IMG/VR virus record: IMGVR_UViG_3300018080_000001
Coordinates: 106,100 to 170,099 of that record
DNA from: a virus
Reading direction: 5' to 3' (one strand)
DNA: 64,000 nucleotides
Part shown: one piece after another, positions 24,150 to 47,796 of the stretch
How the letters are laid out: each line of letters starts with the position of its first letter
How positions within the stretch are numbered: position 1 is the first letter of the stretch
Program-made: the position numbers and the translations under genes
Notes under the pieces: generated by a model
Told to the model about the DNA's origin: nothing
Databases searched by the model: none
What the model saw: only the letters and a program-made list of their open reading frames with translations

Positions 24150-25733
24150 TTATTCTGCTAATATCCAAGAATCTTCGCTGTCATTTACATTATTTCCCGC
24201 AGAGGGTAAAGAATGTGTCGCAGCGCTTCTATTAAAATATATATCTGCGGTAGTACCCGAAATACTTGTGCTACCAGCATTAAAAATAAGACGACACGAT
24301 CCGTTTAAATAAAGAGCATAACGTGTTGCAGAAGATAATTCGTCAATAGTTTCTATTATAGCTCTAGAAAAATCTTCTAATTTCAAAATATCTCTGGGTG
24401 CCGTGTCTATGAATATATTAGACCCTTCAAATAAACCCCCATCATCGATAGCAATACAATCTATAGTACTATATGTAGGTTCAACATCAAATCTACAATA
24501 ACTAGCTGAACATTGAGCCCTATGATCAATAACAAGATGATCCATGGCAGCGAGAAGCAATGTAGATCTCTCGGTAACTACTGTTACACCGGTTCTCGTA
24601 CAAAAACAATTTAGATTAATTCCAGAATTAATAGAGTGTTTTCCGGGCTCTATGTATATATCCGTATCGGGAGCAGCGGGTGCACCGATCAAACTATTAC
24701 ACATTTGAAGGGACGATATATAACCAATGCTATACGCAGTATCATCAAAACCATCACTGTCTAAAAGAGGAACTGAATTAACACTTCCGCCACTTTGTAT
24801 CCAAATATTGTCATCAGTTGGAACCTTAAAACGACAAAGTGTTAAGATCGACATGGCATCACCCTTCCAAATAAAAGGTTTTGCTTCTGTAGAAGTAAAT
24901 ACGGTGTTTGCAATACCAAATTGTGAATTTGACCAATAAATGCTACCATCTACATCAAATGTTATAGACTGATTAATATTTATATTAGCAGCAGGATCAA
25001 TAATATTAAAAGAATCTGTTGCAGCTATACCCGCGAAATTATAAGGTATTTTAATAGCATTAGAAGAATTTTTGTAAATAGGAAAAGTATATCCACTCCC
25101 CGCACCACTAGTCATCTTAATAAATCTCCCAAACCATTGGTCATTAGTCCAAGACGCACCACTAACTGTAATATCTAATCCTGCTAATACACCACGATTA
25201 GTTAGAGTACCAATGGTATGAGGCCCGGAAAGAACTACGGGATCTCCAGTACATTCAAACGTTAATTGTCCATTTCTGTCAAGTTTTTTGTTAACATAAT
25301 TAGGAAAAGAAGTATATGTACCGGCCGTGTAACGAATATGTACACGATGTTTTATTAAATAAGGTATATCATTATATGCTTTATCTATAGTTACATACGG
25401 AATACTTTCACTACCATCTCCTGATACATCGCTACCGTTAGATCCATCAACATAAATATCCATATTTGCAGTTGTCTCATCCTTACCTATAAGACCATCA
25501 TTATCCACATCTCTATACTTTAAAGTTAGTACTTTTTCCGAAGAAAGAACTTCAGAATCTAAAGAACAAGAAACTTTTCCGGCATTTATATAATCTGCTA
25601 CAACATCTAATACTGCGGTGTCAAATTGAATTTCATGTAAGTCTACGCTCTTTTGTCCGTGTGCGATTATATTGAAATTCGGAAAAGACAAAAAACTAGA
25701 TGTGCTATTGATTAATGTTATTGTTTTAGACAT
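24150..25733 (-). CDS. Beta-helix fibre/spike paralog 5
   Basis: Shared N-domain; IYVDGSNGSD.SGDGS..PYxTI pectin-lyase-fold cap motif. Confidence 0.7.
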   Translation of the reverse strand: MSKTITLINSTSSFLSFPNFNIIAHGQKSVDLHEIQFDTAVLDVVADYINAGKVSCSLDSEVLSSEKVLTLKYRDVDNDGLIGKDETTANMDIYVDGSNGSDVSGDGSESIPYVTIDKAYNDIPYLIKHRVHIRYTAGTYTSFPNYVNKKLDRNGQLTFECTGDPVVLSGPHTIGTLTNRGVLAGLDITVSGASWTNDQWFGRFIKMTSGAGSGYTFPIYKNSSNAIKIPYNFAGIAATDSFNIIDPAANININQSITFDVDGSIYWSNSQFGIANTVFTSTEAKPFIWKGDAMSILTLCRFKVPTDDNIWIQSGGSVNSVPLLDSDGFDDTAYSIGYISSLQMCNSLIGAPAAPDTDIYIEPGKHSINSGINLNCFCTRTGVTVVTERSTLLLAAMDHLVIDHRAQCSASYCRFDVEPTYSTIDCIAIDDGGLFEGSNIFIDTAPRDILKLEDFSRAIIETIDELSSATRYALYLNGSCRLIFNAGSTSISGTTADIYFNRSAATHSLPSAGNNVNDSEDSWILAE

Positions 25734-25744
25734 GTTTCTTTATT

Positions 25745-27361
25745 CTATTTCATTGCAATAATGTCCCCACCTGTAGTAGTATAGCTATTACCGCTTGCAG
25801 GCCATGTCGCTTGTGTAGATCCGTCCCATGTAAATTGAATAGCTCCCGTCGCCCCTAAGATATTTACTACAACAGGACCTCCTTTTGCATAAAATATACA
25901 AGCTTCTTCGGCTTTAATAGCATATGCACCCGCTGTATTATTTCCCATCAAATAAGATACTGTTAATCTTCCTCTAGCCTGTATAGCTTGATTACATGCC
26001 GCAAAATAACAGGAATAAATTTTTGTGTGACCGGCAGCTAAAAATCCAATAGTAGAAAATCCAATCTGTTCTATTAATGTAGCAGATATAGCATTCATAG
26101 CATTCGAATATTCAAATGTAAGCCCACCGCAAATAGAGAAAGTTACTGCGTTATCATAAGATTTTATACCTTCAATACGACCTCGTACTACAACACCTGA
26201 TATTTCAGAATTATGCATAACAACATTAGTATTATCAGAAGTAGGAACCGCTCCATTGGAAGGTAAAATATTAGTACATACAGATCCAATATCATCTATT
26301 TGTGGATTGTCAAAAGTGGGTTCGTACAGTACCGATTGCCAATTTAACTGACTATTAAAAAGTTCTAAAAATACATATTTATCACTGTCAACTATACTAC
26401 AAAAAGGTAAATGCGCAGAAATACTTTTAAATGTAAATGATCTATCTCCACCAGTTGCTGAAGTCGCCACAAATTTAATAGCTCCTGCAAAAAATTCTAA
26501 ACCCCAAGGGGTTTCATGCGTATTCATATACAATTCGTCGTCTAATATACTGTCTCCTTCTACAATTACACGATAAGAACATGTGATTGTAACAGGACAG
26601 TCAACAATATTAAAAGTATCTCCAGGAGCATAACCATAATATTCTGTAAATGTTCTAATAGTATCAGAGTCGTTTTTCCAAACAGGTTGAACTTTCCCCG
26701 CCCAATTTCCGGTTAGCACATGAATGAACTTTCCATAATATTGATCGGAACTCCATCCAGGAGTACCCGTAACTTGTAAATCTTTTCCGAAATAAGAACC
26801 AAATAGATCAGGAGTAGAAGCTACATTCGTAGCGGTCCCTATAGCAAAAGGGCCTGCTACTATGGGATAACTTAATCCTGTAGCATCGAAAATTATTTTT
26901 CCATCTTCTATATATCTATGTTTAAAAAATGCTGGAAAACCTGTATAATTTCCTGCTACTTTGAATCTAACATGTATTTTATATTTTATAGTGAAAGGTA
27001 AACTTTCAAGAAATGCTAGTGTTTTATATGGATCGCTACTACTACCATTACCCGCATAATCGTCTCCATTATCACAATCAACATAAATATTAGATGCTGC
27101 TGCGGTTTCATCTTTACCAAAAGAGGCAGAAGAATCTGTTTCTCTATATTTCAGAGATAAAACTTCGGTATAAGTTAATTTTTGGTTATCTAAATAACAA
27201 TCAACTTTTCCTGAATAAATATAATTAGAAATTACTGTTAAGATACCTTCATCAAATTGTATCTCTTTCAGGTCTATATTGTAAGAACTATATTTTTCTA
27301 TATAAAAATTAGGAAAGGATAATGTATTGCTAGATTTGTTTGTTAATGTTACAGTTTTCAT
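25745..27361 (-). CDS. Beta-helix fibre/spike paralog 4
   Basis: As above; first ~30 aa identical to 31843..33402. Confidence 0.7.
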   Translation of the reverse strand: MKTVTLTNKSSNTLSFPNFYIEKYSSYNIDLKEIQFDEGILTVISNYIYSGKVDCYLDNQKLTYTEVLSLKYRETDSSASFGKDETAAASNIYVDCDNGDDYAGNGSSSDPYKTLAFLESLPFTIKYKIHVRFKVAGNYTGFPAFFKHRYIEDGKIIFDATGLSYPIVAGPFAIGTATNVASTPDLFGSYFGKDLQVTGTPGWSSDQYYGKFIHVLTGNWAGKVQPVWKNDSDTIRTFTEYYGYAPGDTFNIVDCPVTITCSYRVIVEGDSILDDELYMNTHETPWGLEFFAGAIKFVATSATGGDRSFTFKSISAHLPFCSIVDSDKYVFLELFNSQLNWQSVLYEPTFDNPQIDDIGSVCTNILPSNGAVPTSDNTNVVMHNSEISGVVVRGRIEGIKSYDNAVTFSICGGLTFEYSNAMNAISATLIEQIGFSTIGFLAAGHTKIYSCYFAACNQAIQARGRLTVSYLMGNNTAGAYAIKAEEACIFYAKGGPVVVNILGATGAIQFTWDGSTQATWPASGNSYTTTGGDIIAMK

Positions 27362-27443
27362 ATAGTATACCCCTTTCTTTTTCCCTTTTACAGGAGAATA
27401 CTATAAAGGTTATACTAGTATATTCTGTATAGAAATTTTTAAA

Positions 27444-27818
27444 TTATTTCTCTATACGTTTAGTTTTATATTTATTATTATAGTTTTCTAGAGCTTTAAA
27501 CATTTTTTTATTACCTGGAGATTCTTTATATAAGTCTCCACCACTCTTTCTAAAAATTAAGGTTTCGCTTTCATTATTAATAGATATAATATATAATATA
27601 TCTTTTATTATTTTATATCTAAGTACTAACTGAGTTATGAATCCAATAGTGCAAATTGCAAAAACATAAACACAAGAAACTATAGAAATACTTAACTGAA
27701 TAGAATCTATATCTTTTCCAAAATATAGGACTAAAACTAATATAGTTGTTACTAATAATCCGGGAATTATCCATCCAAGATATGACCACTTCCATAGTGA
27801 TAAATAAGAATATTTCAT
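27444..27818 (-). CDS. Chimeric membrane protein (N-term of 29400 gene plus C-term of 33486 gene)
   Basis: Translation matches both parents; junction at about 27541. Confidence 0.7.
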   Translation of the reverse strand: MKYSYLSLWKWSYLGWIIPGLLVTTILVLVLYFGKDIDSIQLSISIVSCVYVFAICTIGFITQLVLRYKIIKDILYIISINNESETLIFRKSGGDLYKESPGNKKMFKALENYNNKYKTKRIEK

Positions 27819-27826
27819 TTCTTATC

Positions 27827-29407
27827 CTATGTATTTACTACAAATGAACCTGCGCTATCTGTAGCAGAAAGACCTGCTGCTGGATATGCAACAGTAGTTC
27901 CTCCTGTGACAAATCGAATATCTCCAAGAGTACCGCTTAGTGCTGATGCGTTGATTCTAATAATAGATAAAGCATCTATTTCTAGACCATACTTAGTAAT
28001 ATTTGCAGTTTCTCCATCAATATTTACACAATCAAAATTAGCACGTCTAACAAAAAAAGCACTATCTACAGTATCTCTAAAGTATACATAAGTGAAATGC
28101 CCGCAACCACCAATTGAATATATTCCACTAGAGAAACATCTACCAACATATGTATTATTTATAGTCACACTGGAATTATCATATATTTCTATTCCAGAAC
28201 AAGTTACTCCGTAAGTTTCCATATTTGAGTTATAGCCTGTAAATATAGTTCCTAGAACAGTAACATCAGCAAGATTACACTTACCGTAGTATATATCAAA
28301 AGCTCTCTTGTAAGATCCTGGAGCACCATCTGTATCAGTAATAATCGTACCAGGAAAATAATCCGTATTGGGTAATCTAAAATCTACATTCTTAATTTCA
28401 CTTGGAAATGATAAAGCTGCACCCCCAATAAATACATTTCCTTCAACCGTAGTCTTAGCAGCTTTTAATTTTACTCCATTAGTATGAAGGAAATTGTCAT
28501 TTCCAGAGATCTTTAGTCTATTATCTGATCCTGTTACTTCAAGATAAATACCGGTTACACCGAATCTGACTCCATTTGTATACAATGTACCTATGTCAAA
28601 CCTATTCTCTACATGTAAATCTATCCCGTGATTGACAGAAATTTTTACAGGTAAATCTACAATTTCAAATGTTTCAGACGTACTTGGTATAGAAAGCGAT
28701 TCTCCTATAGTAATTCTGTCTGCATCATTTGAATGAATAGCATAGCATTTACCAGAATTAGATCCAGAAGTCGCTCTAAGAAATTTTCCTACAAATTGAT
28801 CTGTTGTCCATCCTGCTCCAGCTACAGTTATATCATGAGCTACAGGAACACCCGCAGCAGTAATATTAGTAGTTCCTGTAATCGTGAAAGGTCCTGCAAC
28901 TGTAGTAGTATCTCCTTGTCCTTGAATTGTTAATTGACCAATTCCATGTATTTCATGAGTAATATCATAAGGAAACTCAGTATAAGTACCTTCGGTAAGT
29001 AGAACATTTATCTTATGTCCTATTTTCCTTGGTATTTTGGAAAGAGCATACGTAATAGTTTCATAAGGTTTACTGTCTGATCCGTCTCCTGCATAATTAT
29101 TTCCTGTAATTTGATTAACATAAATATCCAAATCTGTATCAGTAGTATCTTTCCCAATAGATCCATCTGATACTACATCTCTATATTTTAAACTAGTTAC
29201 ATCATCCGCAGATAATTGTACAGAATCCAAATAACAATAAGCTTTACTTGTAGAAACATAAGTAGATAAAATATCCAATATAGTACTATTAAATTGAATT
29301 TCGTTCAAATCTATTGTTTTTTGTTCCCCAACAGATAAAGTAAGATTAGCTTGTGGAAAAGACAATACATTTTGTGATATATTTGTTACAGTAATTATTT
29401 TAGACAT
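27827..29407 (-). CDS. Beta-helix fibre/spike paralog 3
   Basis: Closest to 30056..31636. Confidence 0.7.
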   Translation of the reverse strand: MSKIITVTNISQNVLSFPQANLTLSVGEQKTIDLNEIQFNSTILDILSTYVSTSKAYCYLDSVQLSADDVTSLKYRDVVSDGSIGKDTTDTDLDIYVNQITGNNYAGDGSDSKPYETITYALSKIPRKIGHKINVLLTEGTYTEFPYDITHEIHGIGQLTIQGQGDTTTVAGPFTITGTTNITAAGVPVAHDITVAGAGWTTDQFVGKFLRATSGSNSGKCYAIHSNDADRITIGESLSIPSTSETFEIVDLPVKISVNHGIDLHVENRFDIGTLYTNGVRFGVTGIYLEVTGSDNRLKISGNDNFLHTNGVKLKAAKTTVEGNVFIGGAALSFPSEIKNVDFRLPNTDYFPGTIITDTDGAPGSYKRAFDIYYGKCNLADVTVLGTIFTGYNSNMETYGVTCSGIEIYDNSSVTINNTYVGRCFSSGIYSIGGCGHFTYVYFRDTVDSAFFVRRANFDCVNIDGETANITKYGLEIDALSIIRINASALSGTLGDIRFVTGGTTVAYPAAGLSATDSAGSFVVNT

Positions 29408-30047
29408 TTTTTTCCCTTTCCTTCATTATTCGATGCTGTTTCTCAACATCCCACTTAGGATATGCGAAACTTAAAACAGCATGTTCCAATTCATGAAGTA
29501 ATAAGTTAAGCGTTTTATCTATATTTCCACCCCACTCTACTTCGCACCATCTTCCTTTTTGTATTCCGTAATGTCTAAATACTTTCCCAAATCTTTCAGT
29601 TTTTATTGTACCTGGTTTTTTGAACGTAACAAAAACGTGGGGTGAAAAATATTTTGTATTAGCTCTTGGAGCAACTTTTTTAAGTTTTTCAATATTATTA
29701 TTGATATTAGTTTTTATTCCTGGTACAGGGATCATAACTTTCCACAATCTTTCTAGATCCTCTATACCTTTACTCTTTCTAAAAATTAAGATTTCGCTTT
29801 CATTATTAATAGATATAGTATATAATATATCTTTTATTATTTTATATCTAAGTACTAATTGAGTTATGAATCCAATAGTGCAAATTGCAAAAATAGAACT
29901 ACAAGAAACTGTAGAAATAATTAACTGCGTAGCATCCAGATTTTTTCCAAAGCATAGGACTAAAACTAATATAGTTGTTACTAATAATCCTGGAATTATC
30001 CAACCAAGATATGCCCACTTCCACAAAGGAAAACAAGGATATTTCAT
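29400..30047 (-). CDS. Two-TM protein with HExxH (zincin-like) domain
   Basis: Two TM helices, LLHELEH. Confidence 0.6.
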   Translation of the reverse strand: MKYPCFPLWKWAYLGWIIPGLLVTTILVLVLCFGKNLDATQLIISTVSCSSIFAICTIGFITQLVLRYKIIKDILYTISINNESEILIFRKSKGIEDLERLWKVMIPVPGIKTNINNNIEKLKKVAPRANTKYFSPHVFVTFKKPGTIKTERFGKVFRHYGIQKGRWCEVEWGGNIDKTLNLLLHELEHAVLSFAYPKWDVEKQHRIMKEREKNV

Positions 30048-30055
30048 TTCTTCTC

Positions 30056-31636
30056 CTACTTATTTACTACAAAAGAACCTGCACTATCTGTAACAGAAAG
30101 ACCTGCTGCGGGGTATGCAACAGTAGTTCCAGAAATATCCCAATGTATATCTCCTAAAAGACCACCTAATGTTGTATCTCTTATTTGTACACTACTTATT
30201 ACTCCTATATGCATACCATATTTCGTTATATTAGCTGCTATACCCCCAATATCTGAAAAACGACATTTGCTTCTTATAGCATAAAAAGCACTTTTAACAG
30301 CATCTTGAATAAAAATATTTTGACAATGAAGAGAAGTACTTTTTACATAAATTACATCATCAAAACATCTTCCAAAATAACTTTCTGACAAATCTACGTT
30401 AGAATTATAACTTTCTAACCCTGAAGCTGTACAATGATATACATTTAGATATGATCCATTCAATGCACAAAAGCCTCCTATAACTGAAACATAATCTATC
30501 TCACAAGAACCTCGTGAAACTTCAAATGATCGTTTCCATGAACCAGGGGCCAAATCTGTTTCGGTGAAAATGGTACTTGTTATATAATTTACATATATCA
30601 TATTAGTTACTCTCATATCTGTATTTTTTATTTCATTTGGATATATTAAATTTCCTATATTTATTGTAGCTGTCCCTTCAACTGCATTCCAAACAGAATT
30701 AAATTTTACAGCGTTAAAATAGGAATTATTTTGATTTCCTGAAAATTTAAAACCATAGTAAGTAGATCCATCAATTTTAAAATAAATCCCAGTGACTCCA
30801 AAGCTTAAACCGTAAAAGGAAGGAAAACTTTCATCTCCTCTCGTTTCTACGTGGAAATCAACTCCATGATTTAATTCTAGTTTAACAGGAAGATCAACTA
30901 TTTCAAATGTATCTGTAGGCGCAAGAGGCATAGAAGTTAATCCAAGAGTTATTTTATCTGCATCATTAGATTGAATTGAATAATAACGACCAGAATTAGC
31001 TCCAGAAGTTGGTCTTAAGAAATAACCAACAAATTGATCTGTTGTCCAACTAGCTCCCGCTACATTAATATTATGAGCTACTGTAGTACCATCAGCTACA
31101 ATATTTGTCCAAGAAGTTGTTGTATAAGGGCCATATATAACCGTAGGGTCGCCTTGTCCTTGAATAGTTAACTGACCTCCTTTATGAATCTCATGAGTAA
31201 GATCATAAGGAAATTCAGAATATGTTCCTGCTGCGATTAAAACATTTACTTTATGCTCTATCTTTTTAGGAACTCTTGAAAAAGCATAAGTTATTGTTGC
31301 ATATGGACTATCTGCCGATCCATCTCCTGAATAATTATCTCCAGTAGTAGGATTAACATAAATATCCAAATCTTCTATTGTAGTATCTTTTCCAATAGAT
31401 CCGTCTGATACTACATCCCTGTATTTCAAACTCTCCACATCATCTGCGGATAATTGCTGAGAATCCAAATAACAAGATGCTTTTCCTTCTTCAACATAAT
31501 TGGATATTACAGTTAATAAAATTTCTTCAAACTGTATTTCATTTAATTCTAGACTATAGGAATCACGATGGGATATATTAAATCCAGGAAAAGAAAGAAT
31601 TGAATTTGTATTGTTTGTTATTATAATACTCTTCAT
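30056..31636 (-). CDS. Beta-helix fibre/spike paralog 2
   Basis: IYVNPTTGDNYSGDGSADSPYATI. Confidence 0.7.
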   Translation of the reverse strand: MKSIIITNNTNSILSFPGFNISHRDSYSLELNEIQFEEILLTVISNYVEEGKASCYLDSQQLSADDVESLKYRDVVSDGSIGKDTTIEDLDIYVNPTTGDNYSGDGSADSPYATITYAFSRVPKKIEHKVNVLIAAGTYSEFPYDLTHEIHKGGQLTIQGQGDPTVIYGPYTTTSWTNIVADGTTVAHNINVAGASWTTDQFVGYFLRPTSGANSGRYYSIQSNDADKITLGLTSMPLAPTDTFEIVDLPVKLELNHGVDFHVETRGDESFPSFYGLSFGVTGIYFKIDGSTYYGFKFSGNQNNSYFNAVKFNSVWNAVEGTATINIGNLIYPNEIKNTDMRVTNMIYVNYITSTIFTETDLAPGSWKRSFEVSRGSCEIDYVSVIGGFCALNGSYLNVYHCTASGLESYNSNVDLSESYFGRCFDDVIYVKSTSLHCQNIFIQDAVKSAFYAIRSKCRFSDIGGIAANITKYGMHIGVISSVQIRDTTLGGLLGDIHWDISGTTVAYPAAGLSVTDSAGSFVVNK

Positions 31637-31842
31637 TATTTATAACTCCTTATTTTTTTCTATTTAATTAATCTAATTCTAATTTATCTATGCGCTCTTC
31701 CATTTCTTTTAACGTCTTCTTATCTATTTTTTCGTCTAAAGCCAAACCATAAAAATGTAATCCGTATTTCTGTATAAGAATTTTTTCATTTACTTTCAAA
31801 AATTCTTTCATTTTTTTTGAAATAGCCATAAAAATCTCCTTT

Positions 31843-33402
31843 TTAGTATCCGACTATTTGAGAACCGAGTGTATCGTTTACTTCGGCGTTGGCCGCTGGA
31901 TACGCTGTGTCTATTGCGCCACCGCTTAGCCATTTTATCGCCGTTGCCGCACCTCCAGCACCCACAAGAGTGCATGAGGAATTCTCGATAACCGCCCTGC
32001 TTCCCTGGCCCATCGCAATTGCATTCGTCACGTTAGCCGCAGTACCTTCCAGACCTTTAATCGTGACGCCACAAACACCAGGCCACAATTTAACACCGTA
32101 CTGTGCACTTTCTACAAACACAGCATCAACATTGGCGGAACCTACCATCGGCAATCTAACCGCTTGATTGTTGGTTTTTGCCTCAATATAAATTCCCGCT
32201 ACTCGTACACAACCAACAGACGCGTACGCATCAACACCATAGCCATTAGTCGCGTTAGCAATTGCACAATAACCAACCAGGCAATTCGAATACGCAACAT
32301 CAATACCTTTGTCGAACACAAAAAGTCTTGTAATGTCGCTGCTTCCGTAAACTGTTAGATAATCAGTGCCCGTCCCCTTTTTCATAATACAATTAGTATT
32401 ATAGTTACTAACAAGACCTGAATCATCTACAACATCCGTCGGTGAAGGATAATAGTACAACCCCATATCTGTAGTAGTGTCATGAAATTGTACAGTACCT
32501 GAAATAATAGATCCTGTCATATTAATACAACAATCCTGCACAACCAAGCGTTTACTAGAAAAATCTATATCCAGCCCGAACAATCCGTGGTTAGCAAAAT
32601 AAGTATTGCCTCCACCGCCAATTAAATTTTTAAATTGATCGGAAACAATGGTCACACCAGGCTCTACAACCTTAAAAGTTTCTCCCGCAGAAAGAGCGAT
32701 ATACGTATACTCAATTCTTAAAGAGGTAGTTGTATTCGAAACAATCGCGGCGACTTCACCTACTCTTGCACCACTCGTAAATTTAACATATTTTCCACGA
32801 TAGGCATTAGAAGTCAAACCACCACCAACAACAGGAATATCAGCCACGTTATTAGTCTGTATTACTGTTGGTCCTGCTACATCAATTGTCATTTCAGTGG
32901 ATGCATCGACTAAAGCGAGCGAACCATCAAAAGAGAGGAACCCAGCATCAATAAAAGAATGATCTATATTGGATGGCCATGCACTGTAAGTACCAGCGGC
33001 AATATGAATATGTACAACGTGTTTAATTTTAGTAGGAACATCCGCATATGCTCTGGTAATCGTACTATAAGGAGAACTGGAACTACCATCGCCTAAAACA
33101 TCAGCTCCCGTAGTAGCGTTAACATATATATCCATATCCGCAACAGTTTCATCTTTACCAATAGATCCGTCATTATATACATCTCTGTATTTTAACGTTA
33201 ATATTTCACTGGGAGAAAGCTCTACAGAATCTAAGTAACAAGATAGTTTAACATCAGTAACATAACCATAAATTATATTTAATAATTCCTCATCAAATTG
33301 AATTTCATTTAATTCTATATTGTAAGAACTATATTTTTCTATATAAAAATTAGGAAAGGATAATGTATTGCTAGATTTGTTTGTTAATGTTACAGTTTTC
33401 AT
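31843..33402 (-). CDS. Beta-helix fibre/spike paralog 1
   Basis: IYVNATTGAD..GDGSSSSPYSTI. Confidence 0.7.
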   Translation of the reverse strand: MKTVTLTNKSSNTLSFPNFYIEKYSSYNIELNEIQFDEELLNIIYGYVTDVKLSCYLDSVELSPSEILTLKYRDVYNDGSIGKDETVADMDIYVNATTGADVLGDGSSSSPYSTITRAYADVPTKIKHVVHIHIAAGTYSAWPSNIDHSFIDAGFLSFDGSLALVDASTEMTIDVAGPTVIQTNNVADIPVVGGGLTSNAYRGKYVKFTSGARVGEVAAIVSNTTTSLRIEYTYIALSAGETFKVVEPGVTIVSDQFKNLIGGGGNTYFANHGLFGLDIDFSSKRLVVQDCCINMTGSIISGTVQFHDTTTDMGLYYYPSPTDVVDDSGLVSNYNTNCIMKKGTGTDYLTVYGSSDITRLFVFDKGIDVAYSNCLVGYCAIANATNGYGVDAYASVGCVRVAGIYIEAKTNNQAVRLPMVGSANVDAVFVESAQYGVKLWPGVCGVTIKGLEGTAANVTNAIAMGQGSRAVIENSSCTLVGAGGAATAIKWLSGGAIDTAYPAANAEVNDTLGSQIVGY

Positions 33403-34870: not shown

Positions 34871-35127
34871 CTCTCCCTCTATATATCAGTTTTTAATTCT
34901 TCTATTTCTAGCACATCCGATAAATCAGAAAAATTTTCTATATCAGGATCATAAATACAAAGAAAACCACCTATATAACAACACAGCATTTCTATTTCTT
35001 CAGATAAATTACTATTTCCGGCATTATACTTTTGAATCAGAGAATTTAATTCTCTGACCATACCTCTGCGCATATTATCAAAATTAATTTTCATCATATC
35101 CTCACCCTATACGTGTTAAATAAAATA

Positions 35128-35318
35128 TGGTGCTGGCTGGTCCTGCTCCAGCTAAATAAAATGTGTCCTCCTAGTGCGGTGTTCTCCTACCACCACACAG
35201 GGCCAAGAGACGGGCCGCTGAGGAGAAGTCAAGCGGCGTTTGAGGTCTAGTAAACCTCACGATCTCAGACCGTTTCTAGGACGCTTAGCAGTGTATCTAA
35301 GCTCCACATCGCAGCACC
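35128..35318 (-). ncRNA. 191-nt structured RNA with tRNA-like acceptor and T arms
   Basis: GGTGCTG/CAGCACC-A 7-bp stem, GCTGG-AGCAGGA-CCAGC arm, nested helices whose G-U pairs favour the minus strand. Confidence 0.65.
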
Positions 35319-35320
35319 CG

Positions 35321-35403
35321 TGCGAGAAGTGGGATTCGAACCCACAAGGGATTTCTCCCGTTGGATTTTAAGTCCAATCCGTAGACCGTTCCGGCATTCT
35401 CGC
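35321..35403 (-). tRNA. tRNA-Leu(TAA)
   Basis: GCGAGAA acceptor, TTGGA-CT-TAA-AA-TCCAA anticodon arm, long variable arm, GTGGG-TTCGAAT-CCCAC; CCA not encoded. Confidence 0.92.
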
Positions 35404-39675: not shown

Positions 39676-40001
39676 AAAACTAAACACTACATGGTGGATG
39701 ACATCGCTGTACCTTCCCAGGCGCTTTGGTGTGACCCGTTGTCGGCTACACTGGCTTTTCCACCTTTCGGTTTCGTCCTCCTAGAACTTAACGTTCATCA
39801 TCGGAGTAACACCATACCGCTTCCGAGTCCTGTAAATCTTGCCCTTTTGGATACCTTACTGGACTTATTAGCTTACGCTTTGGCCAACCCTACTCAATTC
39901 GGGATGCTCGGTATCGAAGGCTCAACAGTCATCGCGTCCACTTTCCCACGTTTTCGGCAGACGTTCTTCAGCCTGTCATCCACCATGTAGTATTTAGTTT
40001 T
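39676..40001 (-). ncRNA. About 326-nt GC-rich RNA closed by a 28-bp stem
   Basis: IR 39676-39703 / 39974-40001 (27/28 match); boxA-like sequence and promoter upstream. Confidence 0.65.
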
Positions 40002-40009
40002 CAAAGAAC
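39997..40009 (-). promoter_or_regulatory. boxA-like antitermination signal GTTCTTTGAAAAC
   Basis: Matches the rRNA-leader boxA form. Confidence 0.6.
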
Positions 40010-40027
40010 TTTATTAATTTCTAATAT

Positions 40028-40057
40028 ATAATATAGTCTTTAAAACTTATCTGTCAA
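40028..40057 (-). promoter_or_regulatory. sigma70-type promoter for the ncRNA
   Basis: TTGACA-16-TATATT (or 18-TATTAT). Confidence 0.7.
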
Positions 40058-40071
40058 TATATCTAACTAAA

Positions 40072-47716: not shown

Positions 47717-47796
47717 TGGGGGAGATGGCAGGATTCGAACCTGCATGTTCCCCTTTGGGTGAGTTTTCCACGGTGGCCACCTACTCTACATCTCCC
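47717..47796 (-). ncRNA. tRNA-like RNA with His-type acceptor end and no canonical anticodon arm
   Basis: G-GGAGATG/CATCTCC-C-CCA, perfect T arm GCAGG-TTCGAAT-CCTGC, D-stem GAGT/ACTC; anticodon arm reduced to CCC-AAA-GGG. Confidence 0.7.

What the first reader, a model, noticed from the sequence alone, without database searches (positions are those of the whole stretch)
35128..35318. 191-nt tRNA-ended RNA with a kissing-loop core, co-transcribed 2 nt after tRNA-Leu
Seen: acceptor-like stem GGTGCTG/CAGCACC-A and a 5-bp/7-nt T-like arm. The D/anticodon region is replaced by nested helices: ATGTG/CACAT, GCTTAG/CTAAGC, TCCTAG/CTAGGA, TGAGGTT/GACCTCA, GCCGCT/AGCGGC and GTGTGGTG/CACCGCAC. Two loops are complementary over 7 nt (TTCTCCT and AGGAGAA, also anti-SD/SD-like). 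Inference: a tRNA-processed ncRNA with tmRNA-like topology but no G3-U70 alanine pair and no evident tag ORF.
Basis: partly seen in the sequence, partly recalled or inferred. Interest (0 to 1): 0.78.

Follow-up and report, generated by a model that had tools for sequence, protein, structure and literature searches.

The report
Phage tRNA-framed RNA with kissing loops
A 170-kb uncultured sediment phage carries, directly behind its leucine tRNA gene, a probable 191-base folded RNA that has the outer frame of a tRNA but no anticodon and two loops that can pair with each other; I found no relative of it, so its fold is unconfirmed and its job is unknown.

Summary
The element is real and lies on the minus strand (35318→35128), 2 nt after tRNA-Leu(UAA), in a complete 170-kb phage genome. 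Folding z is −3.5. A perfect 7+5-bp tRNA frame so close to the tRNA end arises in 2 of 20,000 shuffles, and the 7-nt loop-loop complement in about 0.2–0.6%. The middle junction has two competing registers.

It is not a tRNA, tmRNA, Y RNA, theta ribozyme or rRNA mimic: no anticodon, T-loop consensus, D-loop GG, G3·U70, tag frame, Ro60 gene or Rfam hit.

No homologue turned up in the pattern scans, BLAST searches, or covariance-model searches of related phages.

Best reading: a stable RNA cut out of a polycistronic transcript by host tRNA-processing nucleases, carrying a kissing-loop-locked domain, like T4 rnaC/rnaD. Related phages, including the closest fully held one, carry tRNA-framed RNAs with other inserts, and this scan has reported that design on other DNA many times. 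This copy differs in having lost the canonical tRNA elbow. Function is inferred only.

The parts
35128..35318 (-). 191-nt tRNA-framed structured RNA (whole element)
35312..35318 (-). acceptor-like stem, 5' strand (U at position 3, so no G3-U70)
   Evidence: pair probabilities 0.98-1.0
35128..35135 (-). acceptor-like stem, 3' strand, plus discriminator A; no CCA encoded after it
35136..35152 (-). 5-bp stem and 7-nt loop in T-arm position; G53-C61 and C56 kept, loop otherwise non-canonical
   Evidence: no similarity to real T arms, p 0.84
35283..35302 (-). hairpin P3 (6 bp, 8-nt loop)
   Evidence: p 0.97-0.98
   Evidence: most pairs p 0.9-1.0
35214..35237 (-). hairpin P7; its loop holds the pyrimidine-rich kissing segment (35227-35221)
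35174..35198 (-). hairpin P8; its 9-nt loop holds the purine-rich kissing segment (35188-35182)
35161..35174 (-). 3' strands of nested helices P4/P2 (two competing registers; contains an AGGAGG word without a start codon at a usual distance)
35321..35403 (-). tRNA-Leu(UAA), class II, CCA not encoded; folds independently of the element in the joint precursor
35117..35165 (-). two 13-nt AU-rich direct repeats (35153-35165 inside, 35117-35129 at and after the 3' end; 12 of 13 identical), possible endonuclease sites; significance marginal

Best explanation
A phage-encoded stable non-coding RNA that uses a tRNA-like 7+5-bp minihelix as a maturation and protection frame around a folded 'cargo' domain of about 150 nt. 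Shown by sequence: it lies in one co-oriented gene row (231-aa ORF, 14 nt, tRNA-Leu, 2 nt, element, 30 nt, 72-aa ORF) with no promoter or terminator match of its own. Inferred: it is cut out of a long transcript; a host RNase P cut before its first G would also free the 3' end of tRNA-Leu; AU-rich cutting and exonuclease trimming stop at the closing stem; CCA may or may not be added. Inferred: the P7 and P8 loops form a 7-bp kiss that locks the core (or joins copies). It does not decode mRNA. Its most likely job is a compact decoy or scaffold that binds a host RNA-binding factor during infection (for example a tRNA-directed defence nuclease or a translation factor); the partner is unknown.
For: Frame, folding and kiss statistics. 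tRNA and element fold separately in the joint precursor. Same layout as T4, where rnaD starts 1 nt after tRNA-Arg and rnaC follows; both are expressed late and have unknown function (PMC9697503). Related phages carry tRNA-framed RNAs with other inserts: a 117-nt one in the closest fully held relative G001 (L126:2801-2917; not called by Rfam) and a 157-nt one in G009 with an 8-nt U-rich linker before a non-canonical T loop, as here. Bacterial RNase P tolerates extensive truncation of tRNA structure and cuts non-tRNA substrates (PMC4919922).
Against: No homologue, hence no covariation. No expression data. The canonical elbow (T-loop consensus, D-loop GG) and an unpaired 3' RCCA are missing, so RNase P, RNase Z and CCA-enzyme action are uncertain. 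The central junction is ambiguous in the folding ensemble. No partner gene nearby: neighbours are orphans or of unknown function.
Confidence: 0.6

Rival explanations
1. A structured RNA with a simple terminal stem; the tRNA likeness is superficial (the 'T arm' is just a stacked hairpin), and release is by RNase E/III-type cuts only.
For: T-like loop no closer to real T arms than shuffles (p 0.84) and D-arm likeness not significant (p 0.18-0.38); AU-rich repeats flank the 3' module.
Against: Exact 7-bp / 5-bp / 7-nt / N73 geometry starting 2 nt after a tRNA: 2/20,000 shuffles; G53-C61 and C56 kept.
Confidence: 0.15
2. A decaying relic (of a tRNA-shell RNA or a tmRNA) that no longer works.
For: Elbow, alanine identity and tag are absent; four related phages keep full tmRNAs and this one has none; no homologue found.
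Against: All twelve frame pairs and the cores of five hairpins are intact at 54% GC in a 36% GC genome, with no sign of drift; no similarity to those tmRNAs.
Confidence: 0.08
3. A sponge or switch: the purine-rich loop and nearby AGGAGG/GGA words bind the 16S tail or CsrA/RsmA, and the kiss masks them.
For: GGA words in two hairpin loops and one junction (seen in the sequence); earlier scan notes describe start-less SD modules in other phages (unchecked).
Against: Six GGA words is not above chance (p 0.10); the loop complement is explained by the kiss alone; host unknown.
Confidence: 0.1
4. A self-cleaving or self-excising RNA that makes the tRNA-Leu 3' end (theta-like role), possibly inserted into the tRNA's CCA end: four bases are duplicated at both borders, and removing the element would restore an encoded CCA.
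For: Position right at the tRNA 3' end, as for theta ribozymes (PMC10879173); 14 of 15 look-alike phage tRNA-Leu loci encode CCA and this one does not; the element's last six bases equal the expected mature tRNA end.
Against: No ribozyme or intron family in Rfam; HDV-like order not met with the strong helices; the border match is only 4-6 nt and largely follows from the acceptor sequence; no element-less form in the source run's contigs (weak).
Confidence: 0.05
5. Chance GC-rich spacer.
For: Single observation; statistics were chosen after seeing the sequence.
Against: Three separate signals: z -3.5, frame p about 1e-4 to 6e-4, kiss p about 0.002-0.006.
Confidence: 0.02

Closest known systems
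Phage T4 rnaC (species 1 RNA) and rnaD (species 2 RNA)
   Same: Stable-RNA-sized (119-139 nt against 191), packed directly behind a tRNA gene; rnaC has a T arm but no anticodon; function unknown (PMC9697503).
   Different: No sequence similarity (47/300 and 225/300 shuffles score as well); rnaC has a canonical T loop and a variable-arm-like hairpin; this RNA has a perfect 7-bp acceptor, a non-canonical T loop and a five-hairpin core.
tmRNA (Rfam RF00023)
   Same: Acceptor stem and T-like arm closing a large structured interior; A discriminator; acceptor strands close to the E. coli type (from memory).
   Different: Half the length; U3-A70; no SmpB-binding D loop; no pseudoknot before a resume codon; no tag frame; no model hit.
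tRNA, class II Leu (RF00005) and irregular/allo-tRNAs (PMC5389517)
   Same: 7/5 acceptor branch, N73, next helix starting at position 10.
   Different: No D arm with GG, no anticodon arm, no T-loop consensus; not called by ARAGORN or Rfam.
YrlA / bacterial Y RNA (PMC4201824)
   Same: tRNA mimic of bacteria and phages that can be cut by RNase P and receive CCA.
   Different: Y RNAs close their ends with the Ro60-binding stem and lie within about 4 kb of a Ro60 gene; this genome has no TROVE gene and the RNA lacks the GNCGAAN motif.
GOLLD and ROOL RNAs (PMC12286853)
   Same: Phage RNAs near tRNA genes, held together by kissing loops, unknown function.
   Different: Several times larger, no tRNA-like closing frame, no Rfam hit here.
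Theta (HDV-like) ribozymes (PMC10879173)
   Same: Start at the 3' end of a phage tRNA.
   Different: Minimal nested double pseudoknot with a catalytic C; not met here.

Membership tests
tRNA (RF00005) | 7-bp acceptor plus 5-bp T stem with 7-nt loop and discriminator | tested here: met
tRNA (RF00005) | T-loop consensus (U54, U55, C56, R57, A58) | tested here: not met
   loop keeps only C56 and R57; p 0.84 against real T arms
tRNA (RF00005) | D arm with G18-G19 and an anticodon arm | tested here: not met
   forcing a D-like stem costs 5 kcal/mol; likeness p 0.18-0.38; no ARAGORN or Rfam call
Intron-containing tRNA | removal of an intron leaves a cloverleaf; intron matches group I/II | tested here: not met
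   no intron family hit; relaxed ARAGORN with introns makes no call on this element
tmRNA (RF00023) | G3-U70 alanine identity | tested here: not met
   U3-A70
tmRNA (RF00023) | tag reading frame ending in a protease signal | tested here: not met
   only a 5-codon frame bounded by an in-frame stop; ending seen in 5% of shuffles
tmRNA (RF00023) | covariance-model match | tested here: not met
T4 rnaC/rnaD | directly behind a tRNA in one transcription unit | tested here: met
   2-nt spacer, no promoter or terminator match between; co-transcription itself not shown
T4 rnaC/rnaD | sequence or structure homology | tested here: not met
T4 rnaC/rnaD | accumulates as a stable RNA in infected cells | not testable with these tools
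   no RNA run available
YrlA / Y RNA | Ro60 (TROVE) gene nearby and Ro60-binding motif | tested here: not met
   motif absent from the sequence
Theta / HDV-like ribozyme | nested double pseudoknot with P1.1 and catalytic C in J4/2 | tested here: not met
   the perfect P1 partner is followed by AU, not GG; a loose descriptor gave only mismatched solutions that break the strong helices (no shuffled control run)
Theta / HDV-like ribozyme | self-cleavage in vitro | not testable with these tools
   bench test
Scan's uncatalogued 'tRNA shell with insert' family (AI notes) | Leu-type top half with canonical D-loop GG and T loop | tested here: not met
   relatives' shells (L126, L254) do keep these features
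Any conserved RNA family | covariation of stems and of the loop-loop pair | tested here: inconclusive
   no homologue found in any search
rRNA mimic (16S h11-h12) | profile match to an rRNA domain | tested here: not met
   no nhmmer hit with profiles of 24-79 rRNAs per domain

The most novel reading that the evidence does not exclude
The element is the first member of a new class of RNA that sits in the CCA end of a phage tRNA and, through its kissing-loop core, cuts itself free or controls maturation of that tRNA (or assembles into a multimer through the loop-loop pair), using a tRNA frame without the canonical elbow.
Probability: 0.07. Interest if true: 0.85.

Novelty: new variant of a known kind. 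Interest (0 to 1): 0.42.

Why it matters
T4 rnaC/rnaD are expressed but still have no known function, and tRNA-framed RNAs appear to be common in large phages. This one is small enough to make in vitro and has a perfect frame without the elbow. It is therefore a clean test of what host tRNA enzymes need, and of whether such kisses are intra- or intermolecular. Without homologues or expression it remains one orphan candidate and does not yet answer the functional question.

Tried and rejected
Homologue searches, all negative:
- blastn in phages, plasmids and E. coli genomes.
- Exact and gapped patterns in viral contigs, metagenome contigs (61, 98/100) and GTDB genomes (87); every hit inspected was chance.
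- One-sequence covariance model R1 on 61 virus records through the loose first look, and with filters off on about 650 kb of tRNA and accessory regions, mostly of related phages. The best hits were ordinary tRNAs or coding DNA. A one-sequence model is insensitive, so this does not prove absence.
- Own descriptor scans over the fetched loci, up to about 4 Mb.
- Neighbour-gene anchoring failed: the downstream 72-aa protein is an orphan, and protein scans found no close relatives. Several related contigs had no DNA available.

Expression: no RNA holder listed; no evidence either way.

Readings rejected:
- 16S mimic. The 3' hairpin resembles helix 12, and a gappy alignment to E. coli 16S 92-316 gave p about 0.05, but profile tests were blank.
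- tmRNA relic. A shared hairpin word and an Ala-Ala-stop were not significant.
- Leu-type D arm hidden under P3: p 0.18-0.38.
- Retron or other RT partner, SmpB, CCA enzyme and TROVE: none in the genome.

Literature searches found no description of this RNA.

Full report
Setting. The window is the last 64 kb of a single-contig virus record of 170,099 bases with direct terminal repeats and 36% GC, found in one sediment metagenome. Nearly all genes lie on the minus strand. It encodes a large terminase, PolA, RecA and DnaX homologues, so it is a large tailed phage. The nearest named record is Virus Rctr197k at 36% terminase identity; uncultured relatives reach 64%. The host is unknown; sigma-70-type promoters and tmRNAs in relatives point to a bacterium.

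Observation. The element reads on the minus strand from 35318 to 35128. It follows tRNA-Leu(UAA) (35403-35321) after two bases and ends 30 bases before a 72-aa ORF. A 231-aa ORF ends 14 bases before the tRNA. No promoter or terminator match separates these parts. The acceptor-like stem, the T-like arm and four hairpins have pair probabilities of mostly 0.94-1.0; a fifth hairpin (46-60) was missed.

Chance. MFE z is -3.5 with 0/200 shuffles. The element is 54% GC between flanks of 24-29%. A perfect 7-bp acceptor closed directly after a perfect 5-bp/7-nt hairpin, starting within six bases of the tRNA end, appeared in 2 of 20,000 shuffles and 36 of 56,568 genome bins. A loop-loop complement of this length appeared in 0.2-0.6% of folded shuffles. 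With an energy filter the frame descriptor hits only this place in the genome; weaker frames occur elsewhere at chance rate. These tests were chosen after seeing the sequence, but they are three separate signals. The source run's contig agrees with the window (not independent).

What it is not. Rfam gives no family at gathering score or at E up to 10. It is not a tRNA: the T-position loop keeps only C56, R57 and the closing G-C, there is no D-loop GG or anticodon arm, and a D-arm-like word under hairpin P3 is not significant. It is not a tmRNA: U3-A70, no model hit, no similarity to the four full tmRNAs in related phages, and the only Ala-Ala-stop frame is five codons with a 5% chance rate. 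The genome has no Ro60, SmpB, CCA-enzyme or reverse transcriptase gene. The HDV-like order of theta ribozymes (PMC10879173) is not met. A resemblance of the 3' hairpin to 16S helix 12 did not survive profile tests.

Homologues. None was found by BLAST, pattern scans of three large collections, a one-sequence covariance model on related phage records or descriptor scans. The scan's own index holds only this same stretch. These searches are weak for diverged relatives, so absence is not shown. The practical result is that covariation could not be tested.

Class context. Related phages do carry RNAs of the same general design. The closest fully held relative (G001, syntenic core, no tRNA gene called by Rfam) has a 117-nt RNA with acceptor stem, D-loop GG and canonical T loop but two long arms with a 6-nt complement. 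G009 has a row of three tRNA-framed RNAs before its tmRNA; one is 157 nt with an 8-nt U-rich linker and a non-canonical T loop. None is similar in sequence to this element. In T4, rnaD starts one base after tRNA-Arg and rnaC follows; both are expressed late with unknown function (PMC9697503). Earlier notes of this scan describe many tRNA-framed phage RNAs with swappable, often kissing inserts. These notes are unchecked and are used here only as leads.

Mechanism. Shown: layout, helices, independent folding of tRNA and element in the precursor. Inferred: the element is cut from a polycistronic transcript. An RNase P cut before its first G would leave tRNA-Leu with a two-base trailer to be trimmed and given CCA. 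Bacterial RNase P accepts truncated and non-tRNA substrates (PMC4919922), but the missing elbow and missing unpaired RCCA make this uncertain. The closing 12-bp minihelix would protect the RNA from exonucleases. The 7-bp kiss would compact the core or link copies, as kissing loops do in GOLLD and ROOL (PMC12286853). With no anticodon or tag it cannot decode; a decoy or scaffold role toward a host RNA-binding factor is the most likely job, with no partner identified. I put 0.6 on this overall reading.

Unexplained. (1) This tRNA-Leu lacks an encoded CCA whereas 14 of 15 look-alike loci have it. The element's last six bases equal the expected mature tRNA end, with four bases repeated at both borders; this could mark insertion into the CCA end but may be chance. 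(2) A 13-nt AU-rich repeat flanks the 3' module. (3) A tandem 4-nt repeat allows a second 3' register that would give a 5-bp microhelix with an ACCA overhang (seen in the sequence, not tested).

Verdict. A real, so far orphan, tRNA-framed structured RNA: a new variant of a known but unexplained kind of phage RNA. Its special feature is a perfect frame without a canonical elbow. Interest is moderate because fold conservation, expression and function are all untested.

Noticed in passing
window 39681-40058 (-): Second unannotated structured RNA of about 300 nt behind a TTGACA promoter and a boxA-like word, closed by a long stem; no Rfam hit. A colinear likeness to E. coli 23S domain I (p about 0.07-0.09) was not confirmed by profiles. 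It shares one 10-nt word with the 191-nt RNA, found only at these two places in the genome (not significant by alignment).
   Followed up: partly
window 47717-47796 (-): tRNA-shaped RNA with His-like G-1:C73, canonical T loop and encoded CCA, but an enlarged D loop and only a 3-bp hairpin where the anticodon arm should be; overlaps a small ORF.
   Followed up: partly
L126:2801-2917 (+), relative G001: 117-nt tRNA-framed RNA not called by Rfam, with canonical D and T loops and two long arms carrying a 6-nt complement.
   Followed up: partly
L254:5808-6200 (+), relative G009: Three tRNA-framed RNAs (100, 95 and 157 nt) in a row directly before a tmRNA gene.
   Followed up: partly
L100:1576-1720 (+), relative G007: 145-nt strongly folded RNA with a long closing stem and T run right after tRNA-Met; no Rfam hit.
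   Followed up: no
L265-L268 (relatives G005, G007, G009, G010): Four of 23 related virus records carry a full tmRNA gene.
   Followed up: partly
window 24150-33402 (-): Five similar-sized genes of 519-538 aa with alike N-termini in a row, one with a tail-protein match.
   Followed up: no
L160 (2.3-kb IMG/VR record): Dense array of short perfect hairpins seen as a chance pattern hit; unrelated to this finding.
   Followed up: no
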